DNA of 64,000 nucleotides from an uncultured Acidimicrobiaceae bacterium (GCA_963823855.1 CAWGNA010000008.1:466444-530443), one strand, 5' to 3'; positions 20,354-34,345 are shown, counted from the first letter of the stretch. Notes: generated by a model not told the origin, from the sequence alone. Program-made: numbers and translations.

Positions 20354-22051
20354 TTAGGCACCTCCCCAGACGTTTAGGGTGATGTTTGACAAAGTTTCGC
20401 CGTTGTCGCCCGAACAGGTGAGGCTGACGGTACTGCCGGCCGGCAACGAAGTCCAATAGCCGGTGACCGCCAGCGAGGCGATGAGAATGTTGCTGCCCAC
20501 CTGGCCCTCGCCAATGAAGTGGTTCGGGAGAACTATGGGGTTCAGCTCACACCTGATAGTCCCTTGCGGGGCGCGGCCGTCGACGACGTTATTAGCGGTC
20601 ACCACGCCGGTGGCAGTAGCCATCAGCTTCGAGGTGGCATTCGGGATGGTCACGCTCACAACGGTCACTGCGGTGGTGGGGGGCACCCGTCCGGCGCTGT
20701 AGTTGCTTTCCATATCCGTTGCACCCGACCCCGCCGGCCCCTGCGGCCCTTGTACCCCTTGTACCCCCGGGTCCCCTTGGGGGCCTTTTTCCCCTGGCGT
20801 CCCGGGAGGGCCAGCAGGTCCGGCAGGTCCTTGCGGCCCAACAGACCCCGCAGGTCCGGCAGGTCCTTCCGGCCCAACAGACCCCGCAGGTCCGGCAGGT
20901 CCGGCACCGCCCGTATCGCCCTTATCGCCCGCAGGTCCTTGCGGCCCAACAGACCCCGCAGGTCCGGCAGGCCCGGTAACGCCGTCAGCACCAGCAATCC
21001 CGGTTGCCCCCGCAGGTCCAGCCGGCCCAATAGCTCCGGTCGGCCCGGTAGGACCAGTCGACCCGATCGCACCCGTAGCCCCAGTAGTTCCAGCTCCGGT
21101 AGGGCCAGGAACTCCGGTTGCTCCAGTCGGCCCGGTCGGCCCAGTAACCCCGGTAGCCCCGGTAGCCCCAGTTCCAGCCGGCCCCGTAAGGCCCATCGGC
21201 CCCGTCGGCCCAGTGGCGCCAATCGTTCCGGCGGCACCCATGGGGCCGTCGTTACCGGTGGCGCCAGTAACCCCCGTGGCCCCTGCCGGGCCCATCTCGC
21301 CAGTGGCTCCAGTTGGGCCGATGGCTCCAGTGCCGCCCGTGGCGCCAGTTGGGCCGGTGCCGCCCGTTGCTCCGGGCAGCCCATCCTTGCCAATTGGGCC
21401 CGTTGCGCCGATTGCGCCTGCCGAGCCAGTGGCCCCAGGCCTGCCATCCGAGCCCGTCGGCCCTGCAGGCCCTGTGGCGCCCGTCGGACCGCTGGCGCCC
21501 GTAGCGCCGGTAGGACCGGGCGCCCCCGTTGGCCCTGTAGCCCCGACAGACCCACTCCCGCTCCCACTTCCGGTGGGCCCGGTCCGGCCCGTTGGCCCGG
21601 GAGGACCAGCCGGGCCAATTGGCCCTCCCACACCGAGGCCCGCGGGCGTGGCGACGCCGACGACGTTGTCTTCATGGATATTCAAGGCGGGCAGGGAGCC
21701 GTAGAACTGGGCGGAACCAAAGGGGAACACGCCACCGTCCCTGGCGACCAACCAGTACCCCTTCCCGTCCGGTGCAGAGGCGATCCCGACAATCGGGGAG
21801 TTGAGGTGCATATTCGTCAGGCTCCCGTAGTAGGAAACGCCCCCAAAGGCGTACACCTCGCCATCGGAATCGGTAAGCCAGTACCCACTACCAACGGGGT
21901 CGGCGGCCTTGGCGACGGCCAGGTCCGGCAGGGGCACCGCCACCGTCGGGGTACTGCCCGAGAGGAGCAACACGCCGGCGGCGGCCGTCCCGAGCATGGT
22001 CCCCCTGGCCGCCCGCTTCCAGCCTTTACGGGGCATTGCATCGTTACTCAT
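20354..22051 (-). CDS. Secreted collagen-like protein: signal peptide, GYW-type repeat N-domain, ~300-aa Gly-X-Y tract, globular C-terminal domain
   Basis: 565-aa ORF. Signal-like N-terminus ([16 protein letters not shown]). Repeats [22 protein letters not shown] and [22 protein letters not shown]. An almost uninterrupted GXY tract ([13 protein letters not shown]...). A ~130-aa C-terminal non-repeat domain. Confidence 0.85.
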
Positions 22052-23987: not shown

Positions 23988-24326
23988 TCAGCGCTTCTGT
24001 TTGTTGCCCGGTGAAACCCTCCGTGAATGGGAGTCGATGAGGGTCAGCCGGCCCCAGAGTTTTGCCTGCCCGGGCTCGGGCACGAGACGCAAAGCCTCGT
24101 CGATCCGGGTGCGCCGATCGGCTCGATCCGGGCTAGTTGCCATCAAGTTGTACTCGGGTCGGTCAGTCGCCAACCTCGGCCCGTAGCGCCGGGTCAAATC
24201 CCTGGAAAGCTCATCGTCGAACACCAGGTCGATCTTGCCAGCTCCTTCGGAGCGTGAGGCAGGTTTTACCGACCTGGTCCTCCAGGAGCCTCGGCGTGCC
24301 ATCGTCGTGCCATCTTGAGCGGGCAC
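23988..24326 (-). CDS. Hypothetical protein
   Basis: 112-aa ORF immediately upstream of 23504..23983 on the same strand (4-nt gap). No recognisable motifs. Confidence 0.35.
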   Translation of the reverse strand: MPAQDGTTMARRGSWRTRSVKPASRSEGAGKIDLVFDDELSRDLTRRYGPRLATDRPEYNLMATSPDRADRRTRIDEALRLVPEPGQAKLWGRLTLIDSHSRRVSPGNKQKR

Positions 24327-24406
24327 GAGGGGTCACTAGGTCGTGAATGAGGCTTCCCAAGTCCGGGCAACAGCGCCCTTGAGCTGCTCTAATGGTGTCC
24401 AGGCTG

Positions 24407-24430
24407 GTGGAGGTGATGGTGGAGGTGATG
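24407..24430. repeat. 12-bp tandem duplication (ggtggaggtgat x2) at the tRNA-Ala 3' end
   Basis: Read directly. The second copy is the tRNA acceptor/T-stem 3' strand. The first copy lies just outside the gene. Confidence 0.85.
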
Positions 24431-24493
24431 GGACTTGAACCCACGACTTCTACGATGCGAACGTAGCGCTCTTCCGGGCTGAGCTACACCCCC
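24417..24493 (-). tRNA. tRNA-Ala(CGC): tRNA-Ala (anticodon CGC), CCA encoded
   Basis: 77-nt cloverleaf folded by hand: acceptor GGGGGTG/CACCTCC with the G3:U70 Ala identity pair, D stem GCTC/GAGC, anticodon stem CTACG/CGTAG, loop TTCGCAT, T arm GTGGG-TTCAAGT-CCCAT, ACCA end. Confidence 0.95.
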
Positions 24494-24956
24494 GACGGTG
24501 ACCAAGCCTAGCGTCTGGGCCGACGCGTGGATTGGGGCTAGCCGGGACCTGGTCGCCGGAGCCGAGCCAGCGTGGGAACCGACGGGAGCTAGTCGCCCCG
24601 AGCCAGTGGGCCGTACAGGACTGCCGTCGGGCGGCCGACTGGGAGGGCTTCGTCAGTGCCCAGGGCTTTTTCGGGTGCCTCTAGGGGTAGCTGGTGCACG
24701 GGGCGACAAAGATAGCGCGCCACCGCACCGGGAAAGCCTCATGGCACCGAGAAGCTCGGACCAGTGCGCACGACCCCGCCGGTCGACAGGCATAGACAGA
24801 GACCGGCAGAGCAGAGACCGGCAGAACAGCGGCAGAGACCAGCTCGGAGAGACGGCGGGAAAGCGACCGGCGGGAAAGCGACCGGCGGCATGGACCTGCC
24901 TGCCGCGTGCAAACCTGCGAACAGGCCGAAACGCGCAATACCGTCCGGTGCCCGGT

Positions 24957-26312
24957 CTAGGCGCCGGCCCGGGCCCCGCCCCGGCGTGCGACAGAATCGA
25001 CGGTGAGGGCGACGAGCAACACGATCCCGGTGACGATGTACGTGGCTGCTGCGCCTAGGCCGATCAAGTAAATGCCGTTGTAGACGGCCGCGATCACGAG
25101 CCCGCCGAGGACTGCATGCAGAGGCTTGCCACGGCCTCCATAAAGGCTCGTGCCGCCAATGACAGCAGCAGCAATGGCATAAAGCACGTAGGTGGGGTCG
25201 ATATCAGTAGCGATCGAGCCGATCTGCGAGAGGTACATGAGGCCCGCTACGCCCGCCATCAGACCCGATATACCAAAAGCGATCGTCCGTACCAGCCTGA
25301 CGTCGATACCAGCCCGGCGAGCGGCTTCCGCATTGCCGCCGATGGCGTAAATGTAACGGCCGTAGCGGGTACGAGCGAGCAGAAAGCTGGTGAGGATGAA
25401 CACGACCAGAAGGCAAGGAATGGACCACGGGACGCCACTGACCCGCTGGCTCCCGGTCCCGCGGTTCACGTTACATATGAGGACCAGGACGACGCCGGCT
25501 GCGGCGACCACGCCCACCTTCACGAGGGTTAATCCCATCGGCGGCGTGACGAGCCCTTGCGAGCGCCTGTGAATGTCGCGCCACACGGTGAATACCCCGA
25601 ACGCGCCCACCACCACGATCATGACTATCCAGCTGGCGGCCGGGCTCAAACTGCCGCCCACAATGTCGAGCAGGACCCGGTTGGAGATCGAGATCACGCC
25701 GCCGACCGCGATCGGGAAGGTATCGAACATCCAGATCATCACGCCTTGCCACGCAATGTAGCCAGCCAGGGTCACGATGAACGACGGCAGCTTGAGGCGC
25801 GTAATGAGCACGCCCTGAAGGAGCCCGATCGCAGTGGTGGCGCCGCAACCGGCCATGATCGCCAGCCACCAGGGCAGGTTGTACGGCGGGGCGACCAGGG
25901 CAGCCATAAGTCCGGCGCCGATACCGGCGACGAACACCATGGACAAGTCGATCCCGCCGAGCAAAAGGACGAAGACCTCCCCGATCGCGAACGCGATGAA
26001 GACAACGGCCTGGTTGAACAGGTTGACGATGTTGCCGGCCGAGAGGTACAGCGAGGTCCGGATCTCGAAAACGACGACGATTACTACTAGTCCGACAACA
26101 ACCGGGAGCACACCGCTGTCACCGGCCTTGACCTTCTGCCACCAGGCTTTTACATAGTCCCCAAGGTTGTTCGCCAGTATCTCCGGAGCGGCAACGACGG
26201 CAGACTCGGCCGCCGGCATCTCTTCGGGCGGTGCATCGGTTGCGACCGCACCCCTCGGGCCGGGTGCCTCGCCGCTTCCGCTACCTGCTGAGGGTTGTTG
26301 GCCAACAGCCAT
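24957..26312 (-). CDS. Sugar ABC transporter permease (CUT2 family, XylH-like)
   Basis: 451-aa ORF with ~10 hydrophobic helices and a Gly/Ala-rich core. 4-nt gap to the upstream ATPase gene. Confidence 0.9.
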   Translation of the reverse strand: MAVGQQPSAGSGSGEAPGPRGAVATDAPPEEMPAAESAVVAAPEILANNLGDYVKAWWQKVKAGDSGVLPVVVGLVVIVVVFEIRTSLYLSAGNIVNLFNQAVVFIAFAIGEVFVLLLGGIDLSMVFVAGIGAGLMAALVAPPYNLPWWLAIMAGCGATTAIGLLQGVLITRLKLPSFIVTLAGYIAWQGVMIWMFDTFPIAVGGVISISNRVLLDIVGGSLSPAASWIVMIVVVGAFGVFTVWRDIHRRSQGLVTPPMGLTLVKVGVVAAAGVVLVLICNVNRGTGSQRVSGVPWSIPCLLVVFILTSFLLARTRYGRYIYAIGGNAEAARRAGIDVRLVRTIAFGISGLMAGVAGLMYLSQIGSIATDIDPTYVLYAIAAAVIGGTSLYGGRGKPLHAVLGGLVIAAVYNGIYLIGLGAAATYIVTGIVLLVALTVDSVARRGGARAGA

Positions 26313-26315
26313 TGC

Positions 26316-27155
26316 TCAGGCCTCCTCGGCCCCGTTACCGCTGGTAGGAGCGGCTGTCGTAGCCGCGGCCGCTGCCGGCAGCGTCGCCCCGACGGTTCCC
26401 GCCAGCGTCCCGAGGGTCATGTACTCGACGACACTTTGCGCGTCGAAGTCCGCAATGGGCCCCTGCGCCACCATCTTGCCCAGCCGCAATATCGATACGC
26501 GATCTGCGACCTCGAAGACGTCGTTGAGGTTGTGCGAGACGAGCATTACGCCATAGCCTTGGTCCGCCAGTCGTCTCACCAGCTGGAGGACCTGCGCGGT
26601 CTGGGCTACGCCTAGCGCCGCCGTGGGCTCGTCGAGGATCATGAGTTGCGAGTTCCACAGCACCGCCCTGGCTACAGCCACGGACTGTCTCTGACCTCCT
26701 GACAAGGACGCGACGGGCTGGCGGATCGAACGGACCGTGGTGACGTGCAAGTCGGCCAGGGTGCGCCGCGCCGCCATCTCCATAGGCGGCTCGTTCAGCT
26801 CTCCGAATTTGGTGATCTCGCGCCCCAGGAACATGTTCTGGACGATATCGAGGTTGTCGCAGAGGGCCAGGTCCTGGTAAACGGTGGCGATACCGAGCTC
26901 AGCCGAGTCCTTGGGCGAACGTATGTGCACCGGCTGGCCCCGCCACAGGATCTCGCCGCCGTCAGGTGGGACTATGCCTGAAATTATTTTGATGGTCACG
27001 CTCTTGCCGGCGCCGTTGTCGCCGACCAGCGCGGTTACCAGGCCTGCCTCGACCGTGAGGTCAACGCCCATCAAGGCCCTGACAGGCCCGAAGTTCTTCT
27101 CTACCCCGCGCAGCTCGAGCAACGTTTGCCCTCGCTCGAGCGAAGCCTGAGGCAT
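26316..27155 (-). CDS. Sugar ABC transporter ATP-binding protein, single NBD (CUT2-type)
   Basis: 279-aa ORF with Walker A GDNGAGKS, Q-loop VYQD, signature LSGGQRQ, Walker B LMILDEPTAAL, H-loop LVSHN and an Ala/Thr-rich tail. Confidence 0.9.
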   Translation of the reverse strand: MPQASLERGQTLLELRGVEKNFGPVRALMGVDLTVEAGLVTALVGDNGAGKSVTIKIISGIVPPDGGEILWRGQPVHIRSPKDSAELGIATVYQDLALCDNLDIVQNMFLGREITKFGELNEPPMEMAARRTLADLHVTTVRSIRQPVASLSGGQRQSVAVARAVLWNSQLMILDEPTAALGVAQTAQVLQLVRRLADQGYGVMLVSHNLNDVFEVADRVSILRLGKMVAQGPIADFDAQSVVEYMTLGTLAGTVGATLPAAAAATTAAPTSGNGAEEA

Positions 27156-27420
27156 CTAAAATCCCTTCCCTCTCCCGGTAGCAGGACCTTTATGAGGATC
27201 GGCCGATTCCGACCTTAGTCGTTTGTCCTCGTTCGGGTTAGTGTTAGCGACATCGGCTCCTATTAGGGCCGACTTCGGCATCCCACCGGCCCCTAATGGC
27301 GTCTGGGCGATGCCCGGGTTAGGGGCCGACATTCAAGTAAGACCTTGGCTCACGCAATCCCGGCACCCGCTGTCGGCCCGCCCAAAACGAACGCTTCCTT
27401 ATCGTCATTCGGGGCCCTTT

Positions 27421-27473
27421 GGGCCGAAAATAACGCAAGCGCCTGGGCCCTGTGAAGAGGCCCAGGCGCTTGC
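27421..27473 (-). terminator. Intra-operon rho-independent-type hairpin after the binding-protein gene
   Basis: 15-bp perfect stem (gcaagcgcctgggcc / ggcccaggcgcttgc) with a 9-nt loop. On the minus strand it is followed by GTTATTTTCGG. Confidence 0.65.
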
Positions 27474-27503
27474 ATGTTGGCTCAGCTTTGTAGCTCTATG
27501 GGG

Positions 27504-28712
27504 CTACGGGTTGACGCCAGCTGCCTTGCAAGCGGCGGCGGTTGCGTAAGGCGCGGCGCACAGCTGAGCCGGTGGCACGAACTTGTCTGAGATGACAGTC
27601 GAGTTCATGTTCTTGGCGGTAACCCATTCGGGCGTCAGCAGGACGGACGGGACGGACTTGTGCTCGGTCGAGTCAGGAGTCGTGCCGTTGACCAGAGCGG
27701 ACGGCGGGGTCATGCCGGCCCGCAGGTAGACGGCCAGGGCCACGGCGGCCTGGGCCTCGAGGTAAATCGGCTTGTACACGGTGCCGCACTGGTAGCCAGT
27801 GAGGATGTTGCCAAGGCCGGTCAAAGTGGCGTCCTGGCCGGTGACCGGGAAGGTCTTGGGCCCAATGCCCTTGGACTTCAAGTAGGTGATGATGGGGGCG
27901 CCGTTCTCGTCATTGGGCATGAGCACGGCGTTGATGGTTGAGTGGGCGGTGTACTCCTGTTGGAACTCGGTCAGGGCGGTGCTCGGGGTCCAGGTGCCGG
28001 CCGGCACTTCGTTGGGCTGGAGCTTGCCCACCAGCGTCCACTTGTGCGATGAGAAGTAGGGCTGGAGCACTGCGTCGTAACCGTTGGCGAACAACGTGGC
28101 GTTGTTATCGGTGACGGCGCCGTGCATGACCAGCACGACCGGCTTGCTCACGTGTTCGGTGGCGATGCAGCTCACCAGGCCGTTGCCGAGGAGCGTGCCC
28201 ACGTAGGTGTTGTTGAAGCTGTCGTAGTACGCACGGCTACCGCCGAGGGTCAGGCGGTCGTAGTCGACCACCTTCACGCCATGAGCACCGGCATACGACT
28301 CGATCTTGGCGCCCACGCCGGAGTCCAGCGGGTCCATGATGAGGACCTTGTCGCCCTTGGTGATGTCGGCCTGGGCGTCGGAGTACTCGGTGGCGTCGCT
28401 GCCGTGAGCGTTGACGACAGAGATCTGAGACGAGGTGAGGCCGGCGTCCTTCATGGCCGTGGTCAGGTACGGGGCGTCGAACTCGACGTACCGGGTCGAG
28501 GACACCGTGTCGGGCAGGATGACGCCGACGCCACCCGAACCCTTGGCCGTGATCGACTTGAGCAGCGACATGGTCGTGAAGTTGCGGTTGAAGGTGGTAG
28601 CAGAGACCGTCTGGGCGGAAGCAGGGGCGACCTGGAGGGCCATGCCCGCAAGTAGCGCCGTTATGGCAACCGACGCAGTTCCCAGCGTCTTGACTCGATT
28701 CGAAATTTCCAT
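27504..28712 (-). CDS. Sugar ABC transporter substrate-binding protein (Peripla_BP_4, XylF-like)
   Basis: 402-aa ORF with a signal peptide ending ASAQ. VTGQDATLTGLGNILTGYQCGTVYKPIYLEAQAAVALAVYL matches the xylose-binding-protein pattern. Confidence 0.9.
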   Translation of the reverse strand: MEISNRVKTLGTASVAITALLAGMALQVAPASAQTVSATTFNRNFTTMSLLKSITAKGSGGVGVILPDTVSSTRYVEFDAPYLTTAMKDAGLTSSQISVVNAHGSDATEYSDAQADITKGDKVLIMDPLDSGVGAKIESYAGAHGVKVVDYDRLTLGGSRAYYDSFNNTYVGTLLGNGLVSCIATEHVSKPVVLVMHGAVTDNNATLFANGYDAVLQPYFSSHKWTLVGKLQPNEVPAGTWTPSTALTEFQQEYTAHSTINAVLMPNDENGAPIITYLKSKGIGPKTFPVTGQDATLTGLGNILTGYQCGTVYKPIYLEAQAAVALAVYLRAGMTPPSALVNGTTPDSTEHKSVPSVLLTPEWVTAKNMNSTVISDKFVPPAQLCAAPYATAAACKAAGVNP

Positions 28713-28860
28713 GTAGTTCCCCTTTTGGTACTTCCGATGAAGTGGAGCAGTTGAAGTTACGAGTCGACGACAACGAGAACTTGCGCTGTCGCCTGCCCGA
28801 ACAAGGCGTCGGAGTGGTTGTCAGGTCTGCTCCGGCGAACAAAACCGTACGCCTGACGTT

Positions 28861-28878
28861 GTGAACGGGTTCGTGAAC
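28861..28878 (-). promoter_or_regulatory. Direct repeat GTGAAC-N6-GTGAAC (GTTCAC-N6-GTTCAC on the coding strand), candidate OmpR-family regulator site
   Basis: Two hexamers with 12-bp periodicity, ~150 bp upstream of the SBP start codon, inside a 944-bp leader. Confidence 0.3.
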
Positions 28879-29656
28879 AGGGCCCTCTGCCGTAAATATT
28901 CCGTGAAGAAACTATCAACGATCCGTTCAACGGCTCCGCCGGCAGCTATCCCCCCTGAGAGAGCATAGAACGATCAGGCCGGGGCGCCCGGGATTGGTCT
29001 CGGCTAGCCCTTCGAGCTGCCCACGCGTTGAATGATCGGTCCCAGAAACGACCAACCCGAGACAGGCGCCGAGAATTGGCGAGGTGGCGCTCGGAGCACG
29101 CTCGCACACGGTGGCCACATTGGGGAGCCATACGATGCTTGGTGAAAGCTTGTCGCTCGACTCCATCAGAAGTGCCGAATTCTTACGCACAACGTGGGCG
29201 GGGAAACGTGCCGCGTGGCAAGTATGGCGGCGCCAACATGTCCGCGCCTGCGGGTTGAGACTTTCCCGGTGTCACAAGGGTTTCTCGTTGCGTTTTCAGC
29301 ACACTCGAGTCATCACAGCGCAACCGGAACCACAAAACGCAACGGGAAAGGCTCTATTTCCGGGCAATGTAACCACACCCGTGCCACCGAATAGCGGCTT
29401 GACCACTCCTTGTGCCGGCCCGGATGCTTCCAGTCGCCGATACGGGGGTCAGGGCGGAAAGACGACAGCGACAACGGCGCCTGTTCGCTCAGCGCACCAA
29501 CCGGAGCAACCGGAGCAACCACCATGAACACTCGTGTGGCCGGACGGCTCGTACGCGAGCTCGGGCGGGCGCCAGGGGAGCGGCCATGTCGGAATGGAGC
29601 TGGAACAGGCCATCAACCCGGCACGAAGCGGTAGCCGGCTCTCGGCTGGGTGATGA

Positions 29657-30307
29657 TCAAGGGCGGGCCCCGCCGCTTTCCAGCTTGGCCCGCAAGCGCC
29701 TGATGTAAACCCGCACGTACTCGGTCTCGGTGGCATAGCCCGGGCCCCACACCCGCCGCAATAGCTGAGCGTGGGTTAACAACTTGCCCCTGTTTATGGC
29801 GAGCTCCCGCAAGAGAGCGAACTCGGTCGGGGTCAGGTGGACTACTTCGCCGCCCCGGGTCACCAGGCTCATTTCCAGGTCGATCACGAGGTCACCGACT
29901 TCTATCTTGAGCGGTGAGGCCTCGACCGGTTCGATGGGACGGGTGCGGCGCAGCGTAGCTGCGATCCTGGCGAGGAGCTCTTCGATCCCGAACGGTTTGG
30001 TCATGTAGTCGTCAGCCCCGAAATTCAGAGCCGCTACCTTGTCCTGCTGGCCCCCACGGGCCGAGACGACGATGATGCCGACTGTCGAGCGCTCTCTCAT
30101 CTCCCGGCACAGCTCGAAGCCGTCTATTTCCGGCAGCATCAGGTCCAAAAGGACGATGTCAGGGCCTTCCGTCTCGAGCAGCTCCAGGGCGCGGCGGCCG
30201 TCGAGGGACACGCTGGTGTCAAACCCCCTGACCGCCAGGTTGCTGCGTACGAGGTCGACGATGTTGGGGTCGTCCTCGACCAGGAGCGCCTTAGTACGCC
30301 GGTCCAT
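29657..30307 (-). CDS. OmpR/PhoB-family response regulator (KdpE-like)
   Basis: Start trimmed to the ATG at 30307 (MDRRTKALLVEDDPNIV..). Receiver motifs DLMLPEIDG and VVSARGGQQDKVAALNFGADDYMTKPFGIEELLARI. Winged-helix C-terminus. The ATG overlaps the kinase TGA (ATGA). Confidence 0.9.
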   Translation of the reverse strand: MDRRTKALLVEDDPNIVDLVRSNLAVRGFDTSVSLDGRRALELLETEGPDIVLLDLMLPEIDGFELCREMRERSTVGIIVVSARGGQQDKVAALNFGADDYMTKPFGIEELLARIAATLRRTRPIEPVEASPLKIEVGDLVIDLEMSLVTRGGEVVHLTPTEFALLRELAINRGKLLTHAQLLRRVWGPGYATETEYVRVYIRRLRAKLESGGARP

Positions 30308-31434
30308 CACCCCTGCTCCGCCGGTCCTTCCGCCGACAGCTGGACGAGGAAGCAGGCGCCGACGCCTCGGTCGTCCTCGAGACTGATCAGCCCGAAGTGG
30401 GCCTGCACGATCCCACGTGCGATAGACAGTCCCAGCCCCGCCCCCGGGGAGGTGGTGTTGCCCCGCTCCCGGGGCTCGAAGATGTCGTCCCTCAGTTCGG
30501 CGGGGATGCCCACCCCGTCGTCGTAGACCCTGATGGCGACGCGGCCGGACGGCTCGAGCGAGACGTCCAGCGTCACGTGCACTCCCGGGGGGTTGTGGCG
30601 GAATGCGTTTTCGAGCAGGTTTACAAAGACCTGTTCCAGCCGGTCGTGGTCGGCCCACACTGGCCCGATGCCGGGGGGGCAGTTCACCGTGACGGCGGCG
30701 GCCCATTCGGGCGGCAAACAGGAAACGGCCGCCTCCAACACCAGCGCCAGGTCGCACCAGTCGTGCTCCAGACGCAAGAGCCCGGACTCGATGGCCGAAA
30801 AGTCCAGCAGGTCCCCGACCAGCCGGCCCATCCGCGCCGACTCGCTCGATATCCGGTTGAGGAACCGGTTCTTGGACTCGTCGTCCCAGGTCACATCCGA
30901 GGCGAGGAGGCTGCTGGCGTAGCCCCGAATGGCCGTTAGCGGTGTGCGCAACTCGTGGCTCAGCCGGGAGAAGAACTCCCGCTGCAGCTGGTGCGAACGG
31001 CGCAGGCCCTCGGCCTGTTGGCGGGCTTGCTCTGCTTCTTCACGCTCGAGTGCCAGGCGGAGCGAATTGGCCGCGTCGCCCAGCAACGCGACCGCGTCGT
31101 CCGGAGGGCCCGAAACGGCCCAACGGGCGACCAGCGCAGCCCTACCCGCGGGCACGTCGAACGACGTAGCGATCACCTGGCCCACCCGGCCCTCCTGGCC
31201 CAGCCCCTCGGGTTGAAGGCAAAGAGGGCCTTCGAGGTTGGCGAGGAACGCTCCCGATAGCGCCATGGCGGCGTCGGCGCCGTCAGTACCGCCGTCAGTA
31301 CCGGGGGGTTCGGGGTAGGCCCGGTTGTCGATGTCGACAGAAACAACGCAGCGGGCTGGCGCTGCCGGCGGTTTCACCCAGAGCTCGATCTGAGCGGCCC
31401 CCAACCCCCGCTGCAACGACTCCAGCGCCTGCAC
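30307..31434 (-). CDS. C-terminal part of the sensor histidine kinase: degenerate GAF, HisKA, HATPase_c (KdpD-like core); continuous with 31295..32836 after one indel
   Basis: H-box FFSRLSHELRTPLTAIRGYASSL, N-box VFVNLLENAFRH and G-boxes DDGVGIP / GAGLGLSIA. The frame is open upstream to ~31441 (GPVSRGLVQALESLQRGL) with no credible own start. Confidence 0.85.
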   Translation of the reverse strand: MQALESLQRGLGAAQIELWVKPPAAPARCVVSVDIDNRAYPEPPGTDGGTDGADAAMALSGAFLANLEGPLCLQPEGLGQEGRVGQVIATSFDVPAGRAALVARWAVSGPPDDAVALLGDAANSLRLALEREEAEQARQQAEGLRRSHQLQREFFSRLSHELRTPLTAIRGYASSLLASDVTWDDESKNRFLNRISSESARMGRLVGDLLDFSAIESGLLRLEHDWCDLALVLEAAVSCLPPEWAAAVTVNCPPGIGPVWADHDRLEQVFVNLLENAFRHNPPGVHVTLDVSLEPSGRVAIRVYDDGVGIPAELRDDIFEPRERGNTTSPGAGLGLSIARGIVQAHFGLISLEDDRGVGACFLVQLSAEGPAEQG

Positions 31435-32836
31435 CAGCCCCCGAGAAACGGGCCCGCAGCAGTGTTTCGAGTACTTCGCGGATCGTCTCGAGCACCCGGT
31501 TGCGCCCTGTCACCTCGCTGAACAGGCGATCGCGCTCGATGGCCCCGGCTGCGTAACCCGCATAGAGCGAAACAAGGTCCATCTGGTCACGGTGCGGGCG
31601 GCCAACTACGGGCTGGCACCCTGTCAACACCCCGATGAGCCCGGTGGGCCCGACCAGCGGCACCGACCAGGAGCTGCGTACGCCAGCCAACTTGCCGAGG
31701 ACCGAGAACCCGCCCCACGCGGAGCTCTTGTCGATGTCCTCGTCGATCACAACGTGACCGGTGCCAGCAGCTATGCCCATCGGGCCCCCGGCGCTGCCCA
31801 CGGGGACAGTGGCCAGGGCCTCCAGCAACGGACGAGGGAAGCCAGCCGCCGCGACGCAGCGCAAGCTCCTGTCCTCGAGCAGATGTATGCACAGCTGCTC
31901 GGTGCGCAGGGCCGCCCCCAGAGCCGAGATTATGAGCGGGAGGCTGGAGTTCGGTTTGGCAGAAGCGAGCTGGTCGACAAGGTTTTGCAAGCGGCTCAGC
32001 TGGTGCCTGGCGGTGGCCTCCGGCTCGTGGCCAGACATGATAGCGACGACGTCGTCTGGGTGGCTCTCAGAAGGCACCAGGTCGGCGACCACCTTGCCGT
32101 AGCGCAGCACGAGGATGCGGTCGGACAGGTTGAAGACCTGTTCGACGTCGTGAGAAACAAGGAGGATCGTCGTGCCTTCGGCTTTGACTTTTGCGATGAG
32201 GTCTTCGACTTGTCTGGTCTCGATGACGCCGAGGGAGGCCGTCGGTTCGTCCAGGACCAGCAGACGAGGGTCGCTCTGCATGGCCCTGGCGACGGCCACC
32301 AACTGCCTTTGCCCGGTGGACAACGCAGCAATTGTCGGGACATCGCTCACCTTGATCCCGTAGGAAGCGAGGATCCGACTAGTGGCGAGTTTCGCCTTGT
32401 CGTCTGATACCCACCAGCGGCCCACTTCCCGGCCGAGAAAGAGGTTGGCAGCGACATCGAGGTTGTCGCAGAAGGCACCGTCCTGCCATACAACCGACAG
32501 GCCGCTGCCGACTGCTCCGGCGTTGGAGCGGACCCGAGTGCCCGCGATCTTGACCTCTCCACTGTCAGGGACGAGGTCCCCAGCGATGCAGCGAACGATC
32601 GTCGACTTACCAGCCCCGTTGTCGCCGATCAGAGCCACGAGCTGGCCAGGCCAAACGTCGAAGTCGGCACCGTTCAGCACCGGCAAACGTCCGAAGGACA
32701 CCGAAAGGCGCCGCACAGTCAACAACGGCGGCGCGACGGGACCACCCGGTCCGGACAGCTGGAGGGTGGACGCAGCCATTACCTCCAGTGTGGTCCACGT
32801 CCGGGGCCTGTGAAGATCAAGCGCCTTGATCCACAA
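31295..32836 (-). CDS. N-terminal part of the same gene: complete ABC-transporter ATPase domain followed by a GAF domain
   Basis: Walker A GDNGAGKST, Q-loop VWQD, signature LSTGQRQ, Walker B LLVLDEPTASL, H-loop LVSHD. GAF-like region follows (LCIHLLEDRSLRCVAAAG...SSWSVPLVGPTGLIGVLTG). The last ~45 aa of the ORF are out-of-frame read-through after a G5/C5 run at ~31441. Start at 32836 (TTG) or 32779 (ATG). Confidence 0.8.
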   Translation of the reverse strand: MWIKALDLHRPRTWTTLEVMAASTLQLSGPGGPVAPPLLTVRRLSVSFGRLPVLNGADFDVWPGQLVALIGDNGAGKSTIVRCIAGDLVPDSGEVKIAGTRVRSNAGAVGSGLSVVWQDGAFCDNLDVAANLFLGREVGRWWVSDDKAKLATSRILASYGIKVSDVPTIAALSTGQRQLVAVARAMQSDPRLLVLDEPTASLGVIETRQVEDLIAKVKAEGTTILLVSHDVEQVFNLSDRILVLRYGKVVADLVPSESHPDDVVAIMSGHEPEATARHQLSRLQNLVDQLASAKPNSSLPLIISALGAALRTEQLCIHLLEDRSLRCVAAAGFPRPLLEALATVPVGSAGGPMGIAAGTGHVVIDEDIDKSSAWGGFSVLGKLAGVRSSWSVPLVGPTGLIGVLTGCQPVVGRPHRDQMDLVSLYAGYAAGAIERDRLFSEVTGRNRVLETIREVLETLLRARFSGAGAGAGVVAAGVGGRSDRALGETAGSASPLRCFCRHRQPGLPRTPRY

Positions 32837-32982
32837 GGGTCGCCTGCTGGCATTGACCGAGCGACGGAAAGTGAGGGAAAGGAGTTGCGAGCGGACAAGG
32901 CAGCAATGTCCGACTTGCTTCGCACAGTGGCTCGCCCTAGCTCATGCGCGCCCGACTTTAGGGCGCCCAGCGCACTACGCCG

Positions 32983-33657
32983 TCAGGTCTGCGGCTCGGC
33001 AGGTGCAAAGGGCGAGAACCGACCGGTCGCGCCGTCCAGGGACGCTTGGAGGCGCAACTGGAGAGCGGTTGTGGTCAGGTCGGAGCGCGTGCGCTCGAGC
33101 ACGGCCCGGAGCGCATCGGCGCTCCTGCGCAAACCTCCAGTGATGGCGTCAGGGAAATCGACGACCATGACCAGCTCATAGACGCCGTCCATCGCTTGGA
33201 AGAGCACCTCGGCGCCCTCTGAACCGCCCTCCCGCAACCGGTCCAGGACGTCACGGCGCAGCTCCGAGGCGGCCTCGCACAACCCGTTGAGCCAGGGCGC
33301 TAAGCCGATGGAGAGATCCTCCCAGGTCGGCAGGCGGCCTCCCTCCACCAGGGCACGGGTGAGGGCGGCCTCGCCGTACTCTTTTTCGGCGTCCTGAAGG
33401 AAGCCGGCGTAGCGAACGGACGGGTACGCGCCCAGCGCCTCCTGGGCTTCTCGCAGCGCGCGTTCGGACTCTGCAAGGAGCGCCTCCCAGCGCGAAGGCT
33501 CCCCCCTATGGACGGCTCGCACCGCGCTGCCCGCAGCCCTGATAGCCCGTCTACACCCCGAAAGAGCCACCTCGCGAGCAGACTGCATCGACTGCAGCTC
33601 AGACGACAGCTTCTCGATTGCACTAGCCGGCAGGCGGAGGGCCTCCCCAGCGGTCAC
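32983..33657 (-). CDS. Translin-family-like protein (GTG start proposed at 33657)
   Basis: AGFLQDAEKEYGEAALTRALVEG...WLNGLCEAASELRRDVLDRL...FPDAITGGLRRSADALRAVLERTRSDL resembles the bacterial translin family. The upstream part of ORF 32983..33825 overlaps the preceding gene and was trimmed. Confidence 0.55.
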   Translation of the reverse strand: MTAGEALRLPASAIEKLSSELQSMQSAREVALSGCRRAIRAAGSAVRAVHRGEPSRWEALLAESERALREAQEALGAYPSVRYAGFLQDAEKEYGEAALTRALVEGGRLPTWEDLSIGLAPWLNGLCEAASELRRDVLDRLREGGSEGAEVLFQAMDGVYELVMVVDFPDAITGGLRRSADALRAVLERTRSDLTTTALQLRLQASLDGATGRFSPFAPAEPQT

Positions 33658-33667
33658 GAACGGTGGC

Positions 33668-34345
33668 TCAATTGGCCCGTGAGACAGCCAGGCTCGCGTA
33701 ACTTTGGAAGTCCCCGTAGCTGGGTTGCTCCCAGCCGTCGCTGGTGTGCCCGTTGGTATGGCCGTTGGTGTGCCCGTTGGTGTGCGCGTTGGCCTCACCA
33801 TTGGCGTGACCATTGGCCGGCACATAACTGGCCGTGCTCATTTGGGTCGAAAGCGCGGCTGTGGGGACCCCGCTCCCGGCCTGCGCCCCGACGCTCGGCC
33901 GGGCACCGCTGCGCTGCACACTGGTCGTCCTTATGAGGACGAGTACGTACACGAATAGGACTATGTCGATGACAGCCTGCAGGCCAAACGCCAGAGCAGA
34001 ATGCGTCAACAACGCAACGAGAAGGCTGAGGAGGACCATGGCGAACAAAACCTCAATGACGTCACGGCGTCTGCGGCGCAGTTCCTCGCGCTTGTGGTTG
34101 CGAGCAGCCGCAGCCACCGAGACCGGGTCGCCGAATACGTCCTTCGGCGCCGGGCCCGCAAACGGCGGCGCACCCGGGCGGCGACGGTTTGCAGGAGCCA
34201 CAACTGGCGCCGGCATAGCGTGCTCCAATACGCGAAGCTCGCGGCGGAATGAACCAACCGTATCCCCCAGGGCAGGACGCTTCGACCAAAGCCAGTAGAT
34301 GAGCGCTACGCACCAAAGGCTCGCGATCAAAAGCTCTGGACCCAT
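33668..34345 (-). CDS. Membrane protein with a His/Asn/Gly/Thr-repeat tail
   Basis: 225-aa ORF with an N-terminal TM helix (LLIASLWCVALIYWLW), two central TM helices, and the C-terminal repeat NGHANGEANAHTNGHTNGHTNGHT, encoded by ~12-bp tandem repeats. Confidence 0.55.
   Translation of the reverse strand: MGPELLIASLWCVALIYWLWSKRPALGDTVGSFRRELRVLEHAMPAPVVAPANRRRPGAPPFAGPAPKDVFGDPVSVAAAARNHKREELRRRRRDVIEVLFAMVLLSLLVALLTHSALAFGLQAVIDIVLFVYVLVLIRTTSVQRSGARPSVGAQAGSGVPTAALSTQMSTASYVPANGHANGEANAHTNGHTNGHTNGHTSDGWEQPSYGDFQSYASLAVSRAN

What the first reader, a model, noticed from the sequence alone, without database searches (positions are those of the whole stretch)
24957..32836. ABC-transporter ATPase domain fused to a GAF-GAF-KdpD-like histidine kinase, paired with a KdpE-like regulator directly upstream of a single-NBD sugar ABC transporter
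Seen in sequence:
- ORF 31295..32836 encodes a complete, apparently catalytic ABC nucleotide-binding domain (Walker A GDNGAGKST, Q-loop, LSTGQ signature, Walker B-Glu LLVLDEPT, H-loop LVSHD), followed by a GAF-like domain.
- After a single indel in a C5/G5 run (~31441), the same frame continues (..ETLL / GPVSRGLVQALESLQRGL..) into a second GAF-like region, HisKA (SHELRTPL) and HATPase_c in ORF 30307..31434.
- There are no TM helices anywhere, so this is a soluble sensor of roughly 840 aa.
- Its stop overlaps the start of an OmpR-family regulator (ATGA at 30307).
- The next genes on the same strand are a XylF-like binding protein, a 279-aa single-NBD ATPase and a XylH-like permease.
- The fused NBD is visibly a paralog of that transporter ATPase (WQDGAFCDNLDVAANLFLGREV vs YQDLALCDNLDIVQNMFLGREI).

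Inference: the kinase-borne NBD could dock on the permease, or heterodimerise with the transporter NBD. That would couple transport or ATPase cycling to phosphotransfer, a fused form of transporter-flux sensing. I do not recognise this domain architecture as a described sensor class.
Basis: partly seen in the sequence, partly recalled or inferred. Interest (0 to 1): 0.8.

Follow-up and report, generated by a model that had tools for sequence, protein, structure and literature searches.

The report
Sugar-transporter ATPase domain fused to sensor kinase
This is a soluble bacterial sensor kinase whose input end is a complete ABC sugar-transporter ATPase domain; it sits next to the sugar transporter it probably controls in hundreds of actinobacterial species, no paper describing it was found, and the break in this copy is most likely an assembly error.

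Summary
On the minus strand, 30307..32779 encodes one ~825-aa cytoplasmic histidine kinase: ABC nucleotide-binding domain (NBD), GAF, a second alpha/beta domain, HisKA, HATPase_c. It has no membrane helix.

The frame break at 31444..31462 is almost certainly an assembly error:
- Near-identical assemblies break the gene at different places.
- One copy is intact.
- 77 of 81 related loci carry a single ORF.

The fusion is the norm of a large, unnamed family found in at least 509 species-representative genomes, all Actinomycetota MAGs. The five-gene cassette kinase, OmpR-family regulator, binding protein, single-NBD ATPase, permease is conserved almost everywhere.

The fused NBD is a CUT2 sugar-importer type. 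It keeps all catalytic motifs and the permease-contact segment QDLALCDNLD. Upstream of the binding-protein gene I found a conserved array of 11-12-bp-spaced direct repeats abutting a -10 element, so the regulator probably activates the transporter operon.

Docking of the kinase NBD on the permease, or pairing with the transporter ATPase, is plausible but untested. Related transporters exist with no kinase encoded nearby, so it is not an obligatory subunit. "KdpD/KdpE-like" is not supported. No literature description was found.

The parts
30307..32779 (-). Sensor histidine kinase gene, ~825 aa when the frame break is repaired. Order: ABC NBD, GAF, second alpha/beta domain, HisKA, HATPase_c. Soluble.
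   Evidence: ORFs and translations. Pfam on the repaired protein. More than 100 intact full-length homologues at 54-86% identity. No membrane helix.
32015..32719 (-). ABC nucleotide-binding domain of CUT2 importer type, with intact Walker A, Q-loop, signature, Walker B-Glu and H-loop.
   Evidence: Pfam ABC_tran 3e-27. NCBIfam best hits YtfR 177 bits, then AraG, XylG and RbsA, all to the N-terminal NBD. Motifs conserved in 78 sequences.
31580..31948 (-). GAF domain (GAF1), flanked by two highly conserved connector helices.
   Evidence: Pfam GAF_2. AF2 pLDDT ~90 for the equivalent residues 280-395 of P0001. Conservation profile.
31444..31462 (-). Frame-break site CTGCTGCGGGCCCGTTTCT. By inference from the protein readings, two 1-nt losses in G and C runs. 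Judged an assembly error.
   Evidence: DNA alignment to L001. Members of the 90% identity cluster read this spot differently: ETLAAGPVSRGL, ETLAAGPFLGG, ETLAGPARFS, ETLAGQPVSRGL.
31060..31434 (-). Second alpha/beta sensor-type domain, possibly GAF- or PHY-like. The least conserved part of the protein.
   Evidence: AF2 strands and helices at 446-545, pLDDT 80-89. Best whole-chain Foldseek hits are full-length bacteriophytochromes. No Pfam hit. No profile similarity to GAF1.
30781..30984 (-). HisKA / DHp domain with H-box SHELRTPL (30937..30960).
   Evidence: Pfam HisKA 1e-18. Most conserved region of the family, mean top-residue frequency 0.90.
30334..30651 (-). HATPase_c catalytic domain with N, G1 and G2 boxes.
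   Evidence: Pfam 5e-22. Motif coordinates.
29613..30310 (-). OmpR/PhoB-family response regulator. Its start overlaps the kinase stop (ATGA). It carries a 1-nt deletion in a G run at 29661..29674.
   Evidence: Pfam Response_reg and Trans_reg_C, the latter truncated at profile position 61 of 77. The other frame continues as LIITQPRAGYRFVPG*. G4 against G5 in L001. NCBIfam MtrA, PhoB and KdpE all score below cutoff.
28861..28918 (-). Array of five direct repeats: TTGAT, TTCAC, TTTAC at 11-nt spacing, then TTCAC, TTCAC at 12-nt spacing. Putative regulator binding sites.
   Evidence: Coordinates. The same architecture occurs in both clades. GATGTTAA is in 34 of 65 loci against at most 8 in shuffles. 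The composite motif was found 42 times in the 65 analysed loci (both strands), all in or at this intergenic region.
28844..28849 (-). -10-like hexamer TACGGT (TAnnnT), 11 nt downstream of the last repeat.
   Evidence: Sequence. The conserved TAnnnT is at the same offset in other loci.
28808..28836 (-). Conserved 5'-leader hairpin, GCCGGAG-N-CTCCG(G/A)C. The RBS AAAGGGGA lies further downstream at 28718..28725.
   Evidence: RNAalifold on 14 Acidimicrobiales leaders gives 7 pairs, 2 of them with a both-sides change in one sequence. Coordinates. No Rfam match.
27504..28712 (-). Periplasmic sugar-binding protein, ChvE/XylF-like.
   Evidence: Pfam Peripla_BP_4 5e-38. NCBIfam ChvE 2e-40 and XylF 4e-39, both below cutoff.
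26316..27155 (-). Single-NBD CUT2 ATPase of the transporter, 279 aa.
   Evidence: Pfam ABC_tran. NCBIfam YtfR, XylG and RbsA N-terminal halves. Homologues are all 260-290 aa.
24957..26312 (-). Permease, BPD_transp_2, GguB/XylH-like.
   Evidence: Pfam. NCBIfam GguB 2e-54. Strong hydrophobic segments.

Best explanation
A self-contained five-gene sugar-uptake cassette. The kinase is a soluble dimeric histidine kinase whose N-terminal input module is a catalytically competent ABC NBD. That NBD derives from the same single-NBD CUT2 ATPase subfamily that powers the neighbouring transporter.

Shown here:
- The gene is one ORF in the family.
- The NBD keeps its ATP-binding and hydrolysis motifs and its permease-contact Q-loop segment.
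- The cassette is conserved across classes of Actinomycetota.
- A Pho-box-like array of direct repeats abuts the -10 element of the binding-protein gene.

Inferred:
- The phosphorylated regulator binds those repeats and activates the binding-protein, ATPase and permease operon.
- The kinase reads the transporter's state through its NBD. It would either occupy the coupling-helix groove of the permease in place of the cognate ATPase, or form an ATP-sandwich dimer with it.
- Sugar-loaded binding protein closes the NBDs, and that closure would pass through the conserved connector helices and the GAF domains to the DHp helices.
- The GAF domain may add a cytoplasmic metabolite input.
- The frame breaks in this window are assembly errors.
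For: Single gene, artefactual break:
- Intact homologues and an intact syntenic L001.
- A 90% identity cluster with breaks at different sites and one intact 846-aa member.
- 77 of 81 loci carry a single ORF.

Distribution and context:
- At least 509 species genomes.
- Kinase, regulator, binding protein, NBD and permease are adjacent in almost every locus with enough flank.
- Genes outside the cassette are not conserved.

NBD identity and constraint:
- The top NCBIfam hits are CUT2 N-terminal NBDs.
- Catalytic motifs are near-invariant.
- 20 positions are shared with the operon NBD but not with tandem CUT2 NBD1. They cluster in QDLALCDNLD, LSGGQRQ.VAVARA and ALGV.
- The same motifs occur in transporters that have no adjacent kinase.

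Regulation:
- The repeat array plus -10 element is conserved and found only in this intergenic region.
- The regulator is OmpR/PhoB family.

Input route: no membrane helix and no periplasmic domain, so there is no direct route to an external signal.
Against: - No physical-interaction test was possible.
- Transporters 68-70% identical in their ATPase exist with no kinase within 8 kb, so the transporter type works on its own.
- The sister relation between the fused and operon NBDs has only 53% bootstrap support.
- The shared Q-loop segment could be inherited rather than maintained for docking.
- AF2 gives low confidence (below 50) for the helical subdomain, residues 102-124.
- At least one lineage (P0053) has degenerate Walker A, signature and H-loop, so ATP turnover is not universally required.
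- No repeat array was found upstream of the kinase gene.
- The substrate is unknown.
Confidence: 0.5

Rival explanations
1. Autonomous ATP or energy switch. The two NBDs of the kinase dimer close on each other when ATP binds and never touch the transporter. The GAF domain senses imported sugar or a metabolite. The kinase tunes transporter expression to cellular energy state.
For: - The NBD has complete Walker A and signature motifs, so a symmetric homodimer with two canonical sites is possible.
- Histidine kinases are dimers (established knowledge).
- Transporters of this type with no adjacent kinase show the transporter type is self-sufficient.
- GAF1 is well conserved and confidently folded.
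Against: - It does not explain why the permease-contact segment VVWQDLALCDNLD is among the most conserved parts of a soluble protein.
- It does not explain why the kinase is always next to one transporter subfamily.
Confidence: 0.3
2. Obligate subunit. The kinase NBD is the second ATPase of the transporter, forming a heterodimer with the 279-aa NBD in place of the tandem ATPase usual in CUT2 systems. Transport itself would then need the kinase.
For: - CUT2 ATPases are normally ~500-aa tandem NBDs, whereas this operon encodes only one NBD.
- The D-loop and signature are shared by the two NBDs.
Against: - The same single-NBD operons occur with no kinase within 8 kb.
- Operon-like NBDs also occur as a homotypic tandem, P0143.
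- Both NBDs are fully canonical and match the N-terminal half of the tandem ATPases rather than forming a canonical plus degenerate pair.
Confidence: 0.1
3. Decaying two-component system. The kinase and regulator are real pseudogenes in this organism.
For: There are two frame breaks within 1.8 kb, in adjacent genes of one system.
Against: - Both breaks lie in G or C runs.
- No further lesions follow the breaks, and the regulator's stop codon is kept in the shifted frame.
- A second assembly whose ORF2 is identical shows a different indel at the same spot, and near-identical ones read through it or break elsewhere.
- Other long-read 'MFD' bins show split genes in unrelated positions.
Confidence: 0.05

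Closest known systems
BceRS-BceAB flux-sensing modules (Firmicutes)
   Same: An ABC transporter serves as the sensor for a histidine kinase that has no input domain facing outside. The regulator induces the same transporter.
   Different: In Bce, the kinase is a separate membrane protein that contacts the permease BceB, and the transporter is a MacB-like peptide-resistance system. Here the kinase is soluble, is covalently fused to an NBD, and the transporter is a binding-protein-dependent CUT2 sugar importer.
PstSCAB-PhoU-PhoR phosphate signalling
   Same: The state of an ABC importer, through its ATPase PstB, is relayed to a kinase. An OmpR/PhoB-family regulator binds direct repeats that replace the -35 element about 10 bp upstream of the -10.
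   Different: Pst needs the adaptor PhoU and a membrane-anchored PhoR with a PAS domain. There is no covalent NBD-kinase link, and the signal is repressive.
KdpD
   Same: Both have an N-terminal cytoplasmic P-loop nucleotide-binding module, a GAF domain before the transmitter, and control of an adjacent transporter operon.
   Different: KdpD has the KdpD_N, Usp and four-helix membrane domains. None of these is present here. Only the generic transmitter matches: 133 bits against a cutoff of 1123.
CUT2 (TC 3.A.1.2) sugar ABC ATPases such as RbsA, XylG, YtfR, and single-NBD relatives
   Same: The fused NBD scores best against their N-terminal NBD. It shares the ...NLFLGRE helical-subdomain motif and sits beside Peripla_BP_4 and BPD_transp_2 partners.
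   Different: It is a single NBD, carries about 570 aa of signalling domains, and forms its own monophyletic clade (100% bootstrap).
Bacteriophytochrome histidine kinases (GAF-PHY-HK spine)
   Same: They are the best whole-chain structural matches (8upk_A, 9eut_A). Both have tandem alpha/beta sensor domains joined by long helices that run into the DHp.
   Different: Sequence identity is about 18%. The NBD takes the place of the PAS domain. No Pfam PAS or PHY domain was detected, and chromophore-binding residues were not examined.
SLC5/STAC kinases (CbrA, CrbS)
   Same: A transporter module is covalently fused to a histidine kinase as its input.
   Different: There the fused part is a membrane permease of a secondary transporter. 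Here it is the soluble ATPase of a primary transporter.

Membership tests
HisKA-type (class I) sensor histidine kinase | H-box with phospho-acceptor His in a DHp domain | tested here: met
   SHELRTPL at 30937..30960. Pfam HisKA 1e-18. Invariant in 59 sequences.
HisKA-type (class I) sensor histidine kinase | HATPase_c domain with N, G1 and G2 boxes | tested here: met
   NLLENAFRHN, DDGVGI, GAGLGLS. Pfam 5e-22.
HisKA-type (class I) sensor histidine kinase | Cognate response regulator encoded alongside | tested here: met
   Receiver plus Trans_reg_C gene with an overlapping start. Conserved in about 75 loci.
ABC ATPase (PF00005) | Walker A, Q-loop, LSGGQ signature, Walker B with catalytic Glu, H-loop | tested here: met
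   All are present in the window and near-invariant in the family. In the window the signature is LSTGQ and the D-loop is SLG.
ABC ATPase (PF00005) | ATP hydrolysis activity | not testable with these tools
   Only motif conservation is available.
CUT2 sugar-importer ATPases (TC 3.A.1.2) | Closest sequence similarity to CUT2 ATPases rather than to other ABC families | tested here: met
   NCBIfam: YtfR 177, AraG 156, XylG 144 and RbsA 140 bits, against DrrA 128 and LivG 117. In the tree it falls with NBD1-type domains.
CUT2 sugar-importer ATPases (TC 3.A.1.2) | Tandem duplicated NBDs in one ~500-aa polypeptide | tested here: not met
   There is one NBD only. The operon ATPase is also single, at 279 aa.
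CUT2 sugar-importer ATPases (TC 3.A.1.2) | Functions docked on a BPD_transp_2 permease | not testable with these tools
   Adjacency and a retained Q-loop segment only. A multimer prediction could not be submitted.
KdpD sensor kinase | KdpD_N, Usp and four-helix membrane domains ahead of the GAF-transmitter | tested here: not met
   Pfam finds none of them. No membrane helix. The NCBIfam KdpD match covers only the transmitter, 133 bits against a cutoff of 1123.
KdpE response regulator | Scores as a KdpE equivalog | tested here: not met
   KdpE 185 bits against a cutoff of 325. MtrA (198) and PhoB (187) score as high or higher.
Bce-type flux-sensing module | Intramembrane-sensing kinase plus a BceB-type permease with a large extracellular domain | tested here: not met
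   The kinase is soluble. The permease is BPD_transp_2, and the system has a binding protein.
Tandem-GAF sensor | Second domain recognisable as GAF | tested here: inconclusive
   No Pfam hit. hhalign against GAF1 gives probability 0.3%. The AF2 alpha/beta fold and the phytochrome-like whole-chain matches are compatible with a GAF or PHY fold.

The most novel reading that the evidence does not exclude
The kinase-borne NBDs sit on the CUT2 permease dimer in place of the ordinary ATPase. This would make a dedicated 'sensor transporter'. Docking of sugar-loaded binding protein would close the NBDs, and that closure would directly drive kinase autophosphorylation. It would be a covalent, adaptor-free link from ABC-importer conformation to two-component signalling, widespread in soil Actinomycetota.
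Probability: 0.35. Interest if true: 0.85.

Novelty: new variant of a known kind. Interest (0 to 1): 0.62.

Why it matters
How ABC importers report their activity to kinases is still debated; the Pst/PhoU/PhoR relay is the classic case. A natural covalent fusion of a transporter-type ATPase domain to a histidine kinase would make that coupling directly testable. The tests could use one soluble protein, one permease and one binding protein. The family is conserved in hundreds of species, always beside one transporter subfamily, and comes with a recognisable promoter target.

It also flags an abundant, unnamed sensor family in soil Acidimicrobiia and Actinomycetes. Automatic annotation labels it only 'ATP-binding cassette domain-containing protein'.

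Finally, it shows that apparent pseudogenes in long-read metagenome bins can be error hotspots. One such spot recurs across independent assemblies.

Tried and rejected
- PDB sequence search with the NBD returned only generic ABC exporters and did not help place the family.
- The representative-library search was dominated by ~500-aa tandem ATPases, whose two domains add up in score. It could not rank single-NBD relatives.
I used the 86% identical P0001 instead. For the same reason I did not attempt a chimeric or linker 'multimer'.
- hhalign of GAF1 against the middle domain found no similarity.
- Rfam on 24000..34000 found only a tRNA.
- My first IUPAC repeat pattern had the wrong spacing and found nothing. 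The first bootstrap script timed out.
- The composite repeat motif was not found upstream of the kinase gene, or anywhere else on either strand of the 65 analysed loci.
- Neighbouring genes outside the cassette give no clue to the substrate.
- The exact-sequence contig look-up for the window ORF found nothing.
- A frame-plot (GC3) scan for other frameshifts in the window was not decisive.
- Six literature searches found no description of the fusion.

Full report
**What is in the window**

On the minus strand, six features follow one another:
- ORF 31295..32836. Its likely true start is ATG 32779, MAASTLQ.
- ORF 30307..31434, in another frame.
- A receiver plus winged-helix regulator starting at 30310.
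- A Peripla_BP_4 binding protein, 27504..28712.
- A 279-aa single ABC ATPase, 26316..27155.
- A BPD_transp_2 permease, 24957..26312.

Pfam on the repaired kinase gives four domains:

| Domain | Residues |
|---|---|
| ABC_tran | 35-181 |
| GAF_2 | 294-415 |
| HisKA | 599-666 |
| HATPase_c | 710-815 |

All ABC motifs and all kinase boxes are present at the coordinates listed in the parts table. The strongest 19-residue hydropathy mean is 1.34, against 2.66 in the permease. The kinase therefore has no membrane helix.

**Is the gene really broken?**

More than 100 full-length homologues of 810-880 aa (54-86% identity) carry the same four Pfam domains in one protein.

The closest one, P0001, lies in a syntenic contig: MoaA, MoaC, two hypothetical genes, kinase, regulator, gap, binding protein. 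There the kinase is 814 aa and the regulator is 241 aa, both intact.

Against that contig the window is 5 nt short in CTGCTGCGGGCCCGTTTCT, 31444..31462.

The 90% identity cluster of the two window ORFs is the decisive evidence. It has 16 members from several long contigs:
- One member is intact at 846 aa (P0125, ETLAGQPVSRGL).
- A ~99% identical copy reads straight through the window's break (P0122, ETLAAGPVSRGL) and breaks further downstream.
- A second assembly has a second ORF identical to the window's, yet shifts one codon later at the break site (P0133, ETLAAGPFLGG).
- Other members show still other indel patterns at the same GGGCCCC spot, or break elsewhere.

A real inherited lesion would be the same everywhere. 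This pattern is basecalling and assembly noise at a hotspot.

Its frame stops at ESGGARP*, and the winged-helix end LIITQPRAGYRFVPG* continues in another frame. The cause is G4 where L001 has G5.

Many related loci come from 'MFD' bins with very long contigs, and they show split genes at unrelated positions. In 77 of 81 related loci a single ORF carries both the Walker A motif and the H-box.

I conclude that the organism has one intact kinase gene and an intact regulator gene. My confidence in this is about 0.9.

**How widespread, and in what context**

The 80 loci listed are all metagenome-assembled Actinomycetota:
- Acidimicrobiales and Acidimicrobiaceae, 62-79% identity.
- Bins labelled Streptosporangiaceae, Actinomycetes, Actinomycetota or Solirubrobacterales, 51-57% identity.

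More distant representatives, with 47-51% identity in the NBD, keep the same architecture at 790-820 aa.

tblastn of the window's neighbours against all loci shows the order kinase, regulator, binding protein, single NBD, permease in practically every locus that has enough flank. There are three exceptions:
- One locus has the transporter inverted.
- One subclade has two permease genes.
- One locus has insertion elements after the regulator.

Genes beyond these five are not conserved. The unit is therefore a self-contained cassette, and the substrate cannot be read from the neighbours.

**What kind of NBD is it**

NCBIfam ranks the fused NBD against the N-terminal NBDs of CUT2 sugar importers:

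| Family model | Bits |
|---|---|
| YtfR | 177 |
| AraG | 156 |
| XylG | 144 |
| RbsA | 140 |
| MglA | 135 |
| DrrA | 128 |
| LivG | 117 |

The operon ATPase behaves the same way. No curated model reaches its cutoff on the fused protein. The binding protein is ChvE/XylF-like and the permease is GguB-like.

A neighbour-joining tree with 100 bootstraps gave these results:
- The fused NBDs are monophyletic (100%).
- The operon NBDs are monophyletic (100%).
- The two are sisters in only 53% of replicates.
- Mean identity is 42% fused to operon, 38% fused to tandem NBD1, and 30% fused to tandem NBD2.

The claim of specific paralogy to the neighbouring ATPase is only weakly supported.

Across 78 sequences the following are near-invariant:
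- Walker A GxNGAGK(S/T)T
- Q-loop VVWQD
- signature LSGGQRQ
- Walker B LLxLDEPT
- H-loop SHD

Twenty positions are identical between the fused and operon consensus but differ from tandem NBD1. They cluster in three places:
- QDLALCDNLD, the Q-loop and the start of the helical subdomain. By established knowledge of ABC importers such as MalK, this segment lines the groove for the permease coupling helix.
- The signature helix.
- The D-loop, ALGV.

The same motifs occur in single-NBD transporters that have no adjacent kinase. They are therefore traits of that ATPase subfamily, which the kinase-borne copy has kept.

**The rest of the protein**

AF2 on P0001 with a 59-sequence alignment gave mean pLDDT 74.7. 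The model resolves these elements:
- NBD, 20-250
- a helix
- GAF1, 280-395 (pLDDT ~90)
- a 40-residue helix
- a second alpha/beta domain, 446-545 (pLDDT 80-89)
- DHp
- catalytic domain

The two connector segments, ARxQLxRLxxLxDxL and RNRVLETIREVLETLAG, are among the most conserved parts of the protein.

The best whole-chain Foldseek matches are full-length bacteriophytochromes, which have a sensor-helix-sensor-helix-DHp spine. The second domain has no Pfam hit and no profile similarity to GAF1. 'GAF-GAF' therefore remains plausible but unproven.

KdpD similarity is limited to the generic transmitter. The regulator scores equally with MtrA, PhoB and KdpE, all below cutoff.

**A likely target for the regulator**

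The regulator-to-binding-protein intergenic regions of 65 loci are enriched for GATGTTAA, GTTCAC and CGTTAA. GATGTTAA occurs in 34 of 65 loci, against at most 8 in shuffles.

Aligned, these sequences form two groups of TT(C/A/T)A(C/T) direct repeats spaced 11-12 nt apart. A TAnnnT hexamer follows 10-11 nt later, in both major clades.

A composite pattern of two repeats plus TAnnnT matched 42 times on the two strands of those 65 loci. Every match lay in or at this intergenic region, which makes up 0.9% of that sequence.

In the window the elements are:
- TTGAT, 28918..28914
- TTCAC, 28907..28903
- TTTAC, 28896..28892
- TTCAC, 28877..28873
- TTCAC, 28865..28861
- TACGGT (the -10-like hexamer), 28849..28844

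This geometry matches Pho boxes of OmpR/PhoB-family activators (established knowledge). I infer direct activation of the transporter operon, with confidence about 0.8. No such array precedes the kinase gene.

**Mechanism**

The kinase has no route to the outside. It carries a transporter-type NBD under purifying selection, including the permease-contact segment. It is tied to one transporter subfamily.

The best reading is that the NBD couples the kinase to the transporter, on the permease or on the operon ATPase, and that NBD closure is passed down the helical spine.

Three points cut against any stronger claim:
- Transporters with a 68-70% identical single NBD occur with no kinase within 8 kb. 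Operon-like NBDs also occur as a homotypic tandem, P0143. The kinase NBD is therefore an accessory, not an obligatory half of the transporter.
- One lineage (P0053) has degenerate ATP motifs.
- No interaction could be computed.

The main rival is an ATP-driven self-dimerising switch with the GAF domain as the ligand sensor.

**Novelty**

Automatic annotation names the protein 'ATP-binding cassette domain-containing protein' or 'histidine kinase/ABC ATPase'. No curated family model covers it. Six full-text searches found no description of it.

Transporter-coupled sensing is a known idea, from Bce, Pst/PhoR and the SLC5/STAC kinases. A covalent fusion of a transporter ATPase to a kinase is, as far as I could find, not described. 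I rate it a new variant of a known kind, of moderately high interest.

Noticed in passing
window 29661..29674 (minus strand): The response-regulator gene has a 1-nt deletion in a G run (G4 against G5 in L001). This truncates the winged helix, and the real stop is at 29613..29615.
   Followed up: yes
window 28808..28836 (minus strand): A conserved hairpin, GCCGGAG-N-CTCCGGC, lies early in the binding-protein leader in Acidimicrobiales loci. It has 7 pairs, 2 of them with a both-sides change in one sequence, and no Rfam family. A short CTTC...GAAG inverted repeat sits just before the RBS AAAGGGGA.
   Followed up: partly
window 28920..29612: About 690 nt of lower-GC spacer lie between the regulator and the repeat array. 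It is not conserved even in the 86% identical relative, and it has no similarity elsewhere in the window or the fetched loci. Most relatives have only about 150-400 nt here.
   Followed up: partly
window 20354..22051 (minus strand): A 565-aa ORF has a signal-like N-terminus and a long collagen-like Gly-X-Y repeat ([10 protein letters not shown]...).
   Followed up: no
window 24420..24493 (minus strand): A tRNA gene lies just downstream of the permease (Rfam tRNA, 63.8 bits).
   Followed up: no
L083 3323..4315; L085 3352..4344; L086 407..1399: Another NBD-sensor fusion: a 330-aa ABC_tran plus cNMP_binding protein encoded next to an FtsX-type permease, in Acidimicrobiia contigs.
   Followed up: no
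P0143 (578 aa, from the representative search): A tandem fusion of two operon-type NBDs (ETVYQDLALA..., LSGGQ twice). It groups with the single-NBD transporter ATPases at 87% bootstrap.
   Followed up: partly
P0053 (alignment A3): This family member has degenerate ATP motifs: Walker A GENESGKT, signature LSSVELK, and H-loop His replaced by Arg. Some lineages may have lost hydrolysis.
   Followed up: no
L026, L033, L046, L052, L059, L063, L066: This subclade of the cassette carries two permease genes after the single NBD. Its binding protein is more divergent, at 46-49% identity.
   Followed up: no
L088 13317..16042: Two transposase genes lie directly after the regulator, where the transporter operon normally sits.
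   Followed up: no
L006, L015, L019, L028, L038 (MFD bins): tblastn hits to MoaA, the regulator or the permease are split into pieces. This is consistent with frequent indel errors in these long-contig assemblies.
   Followed up: partly
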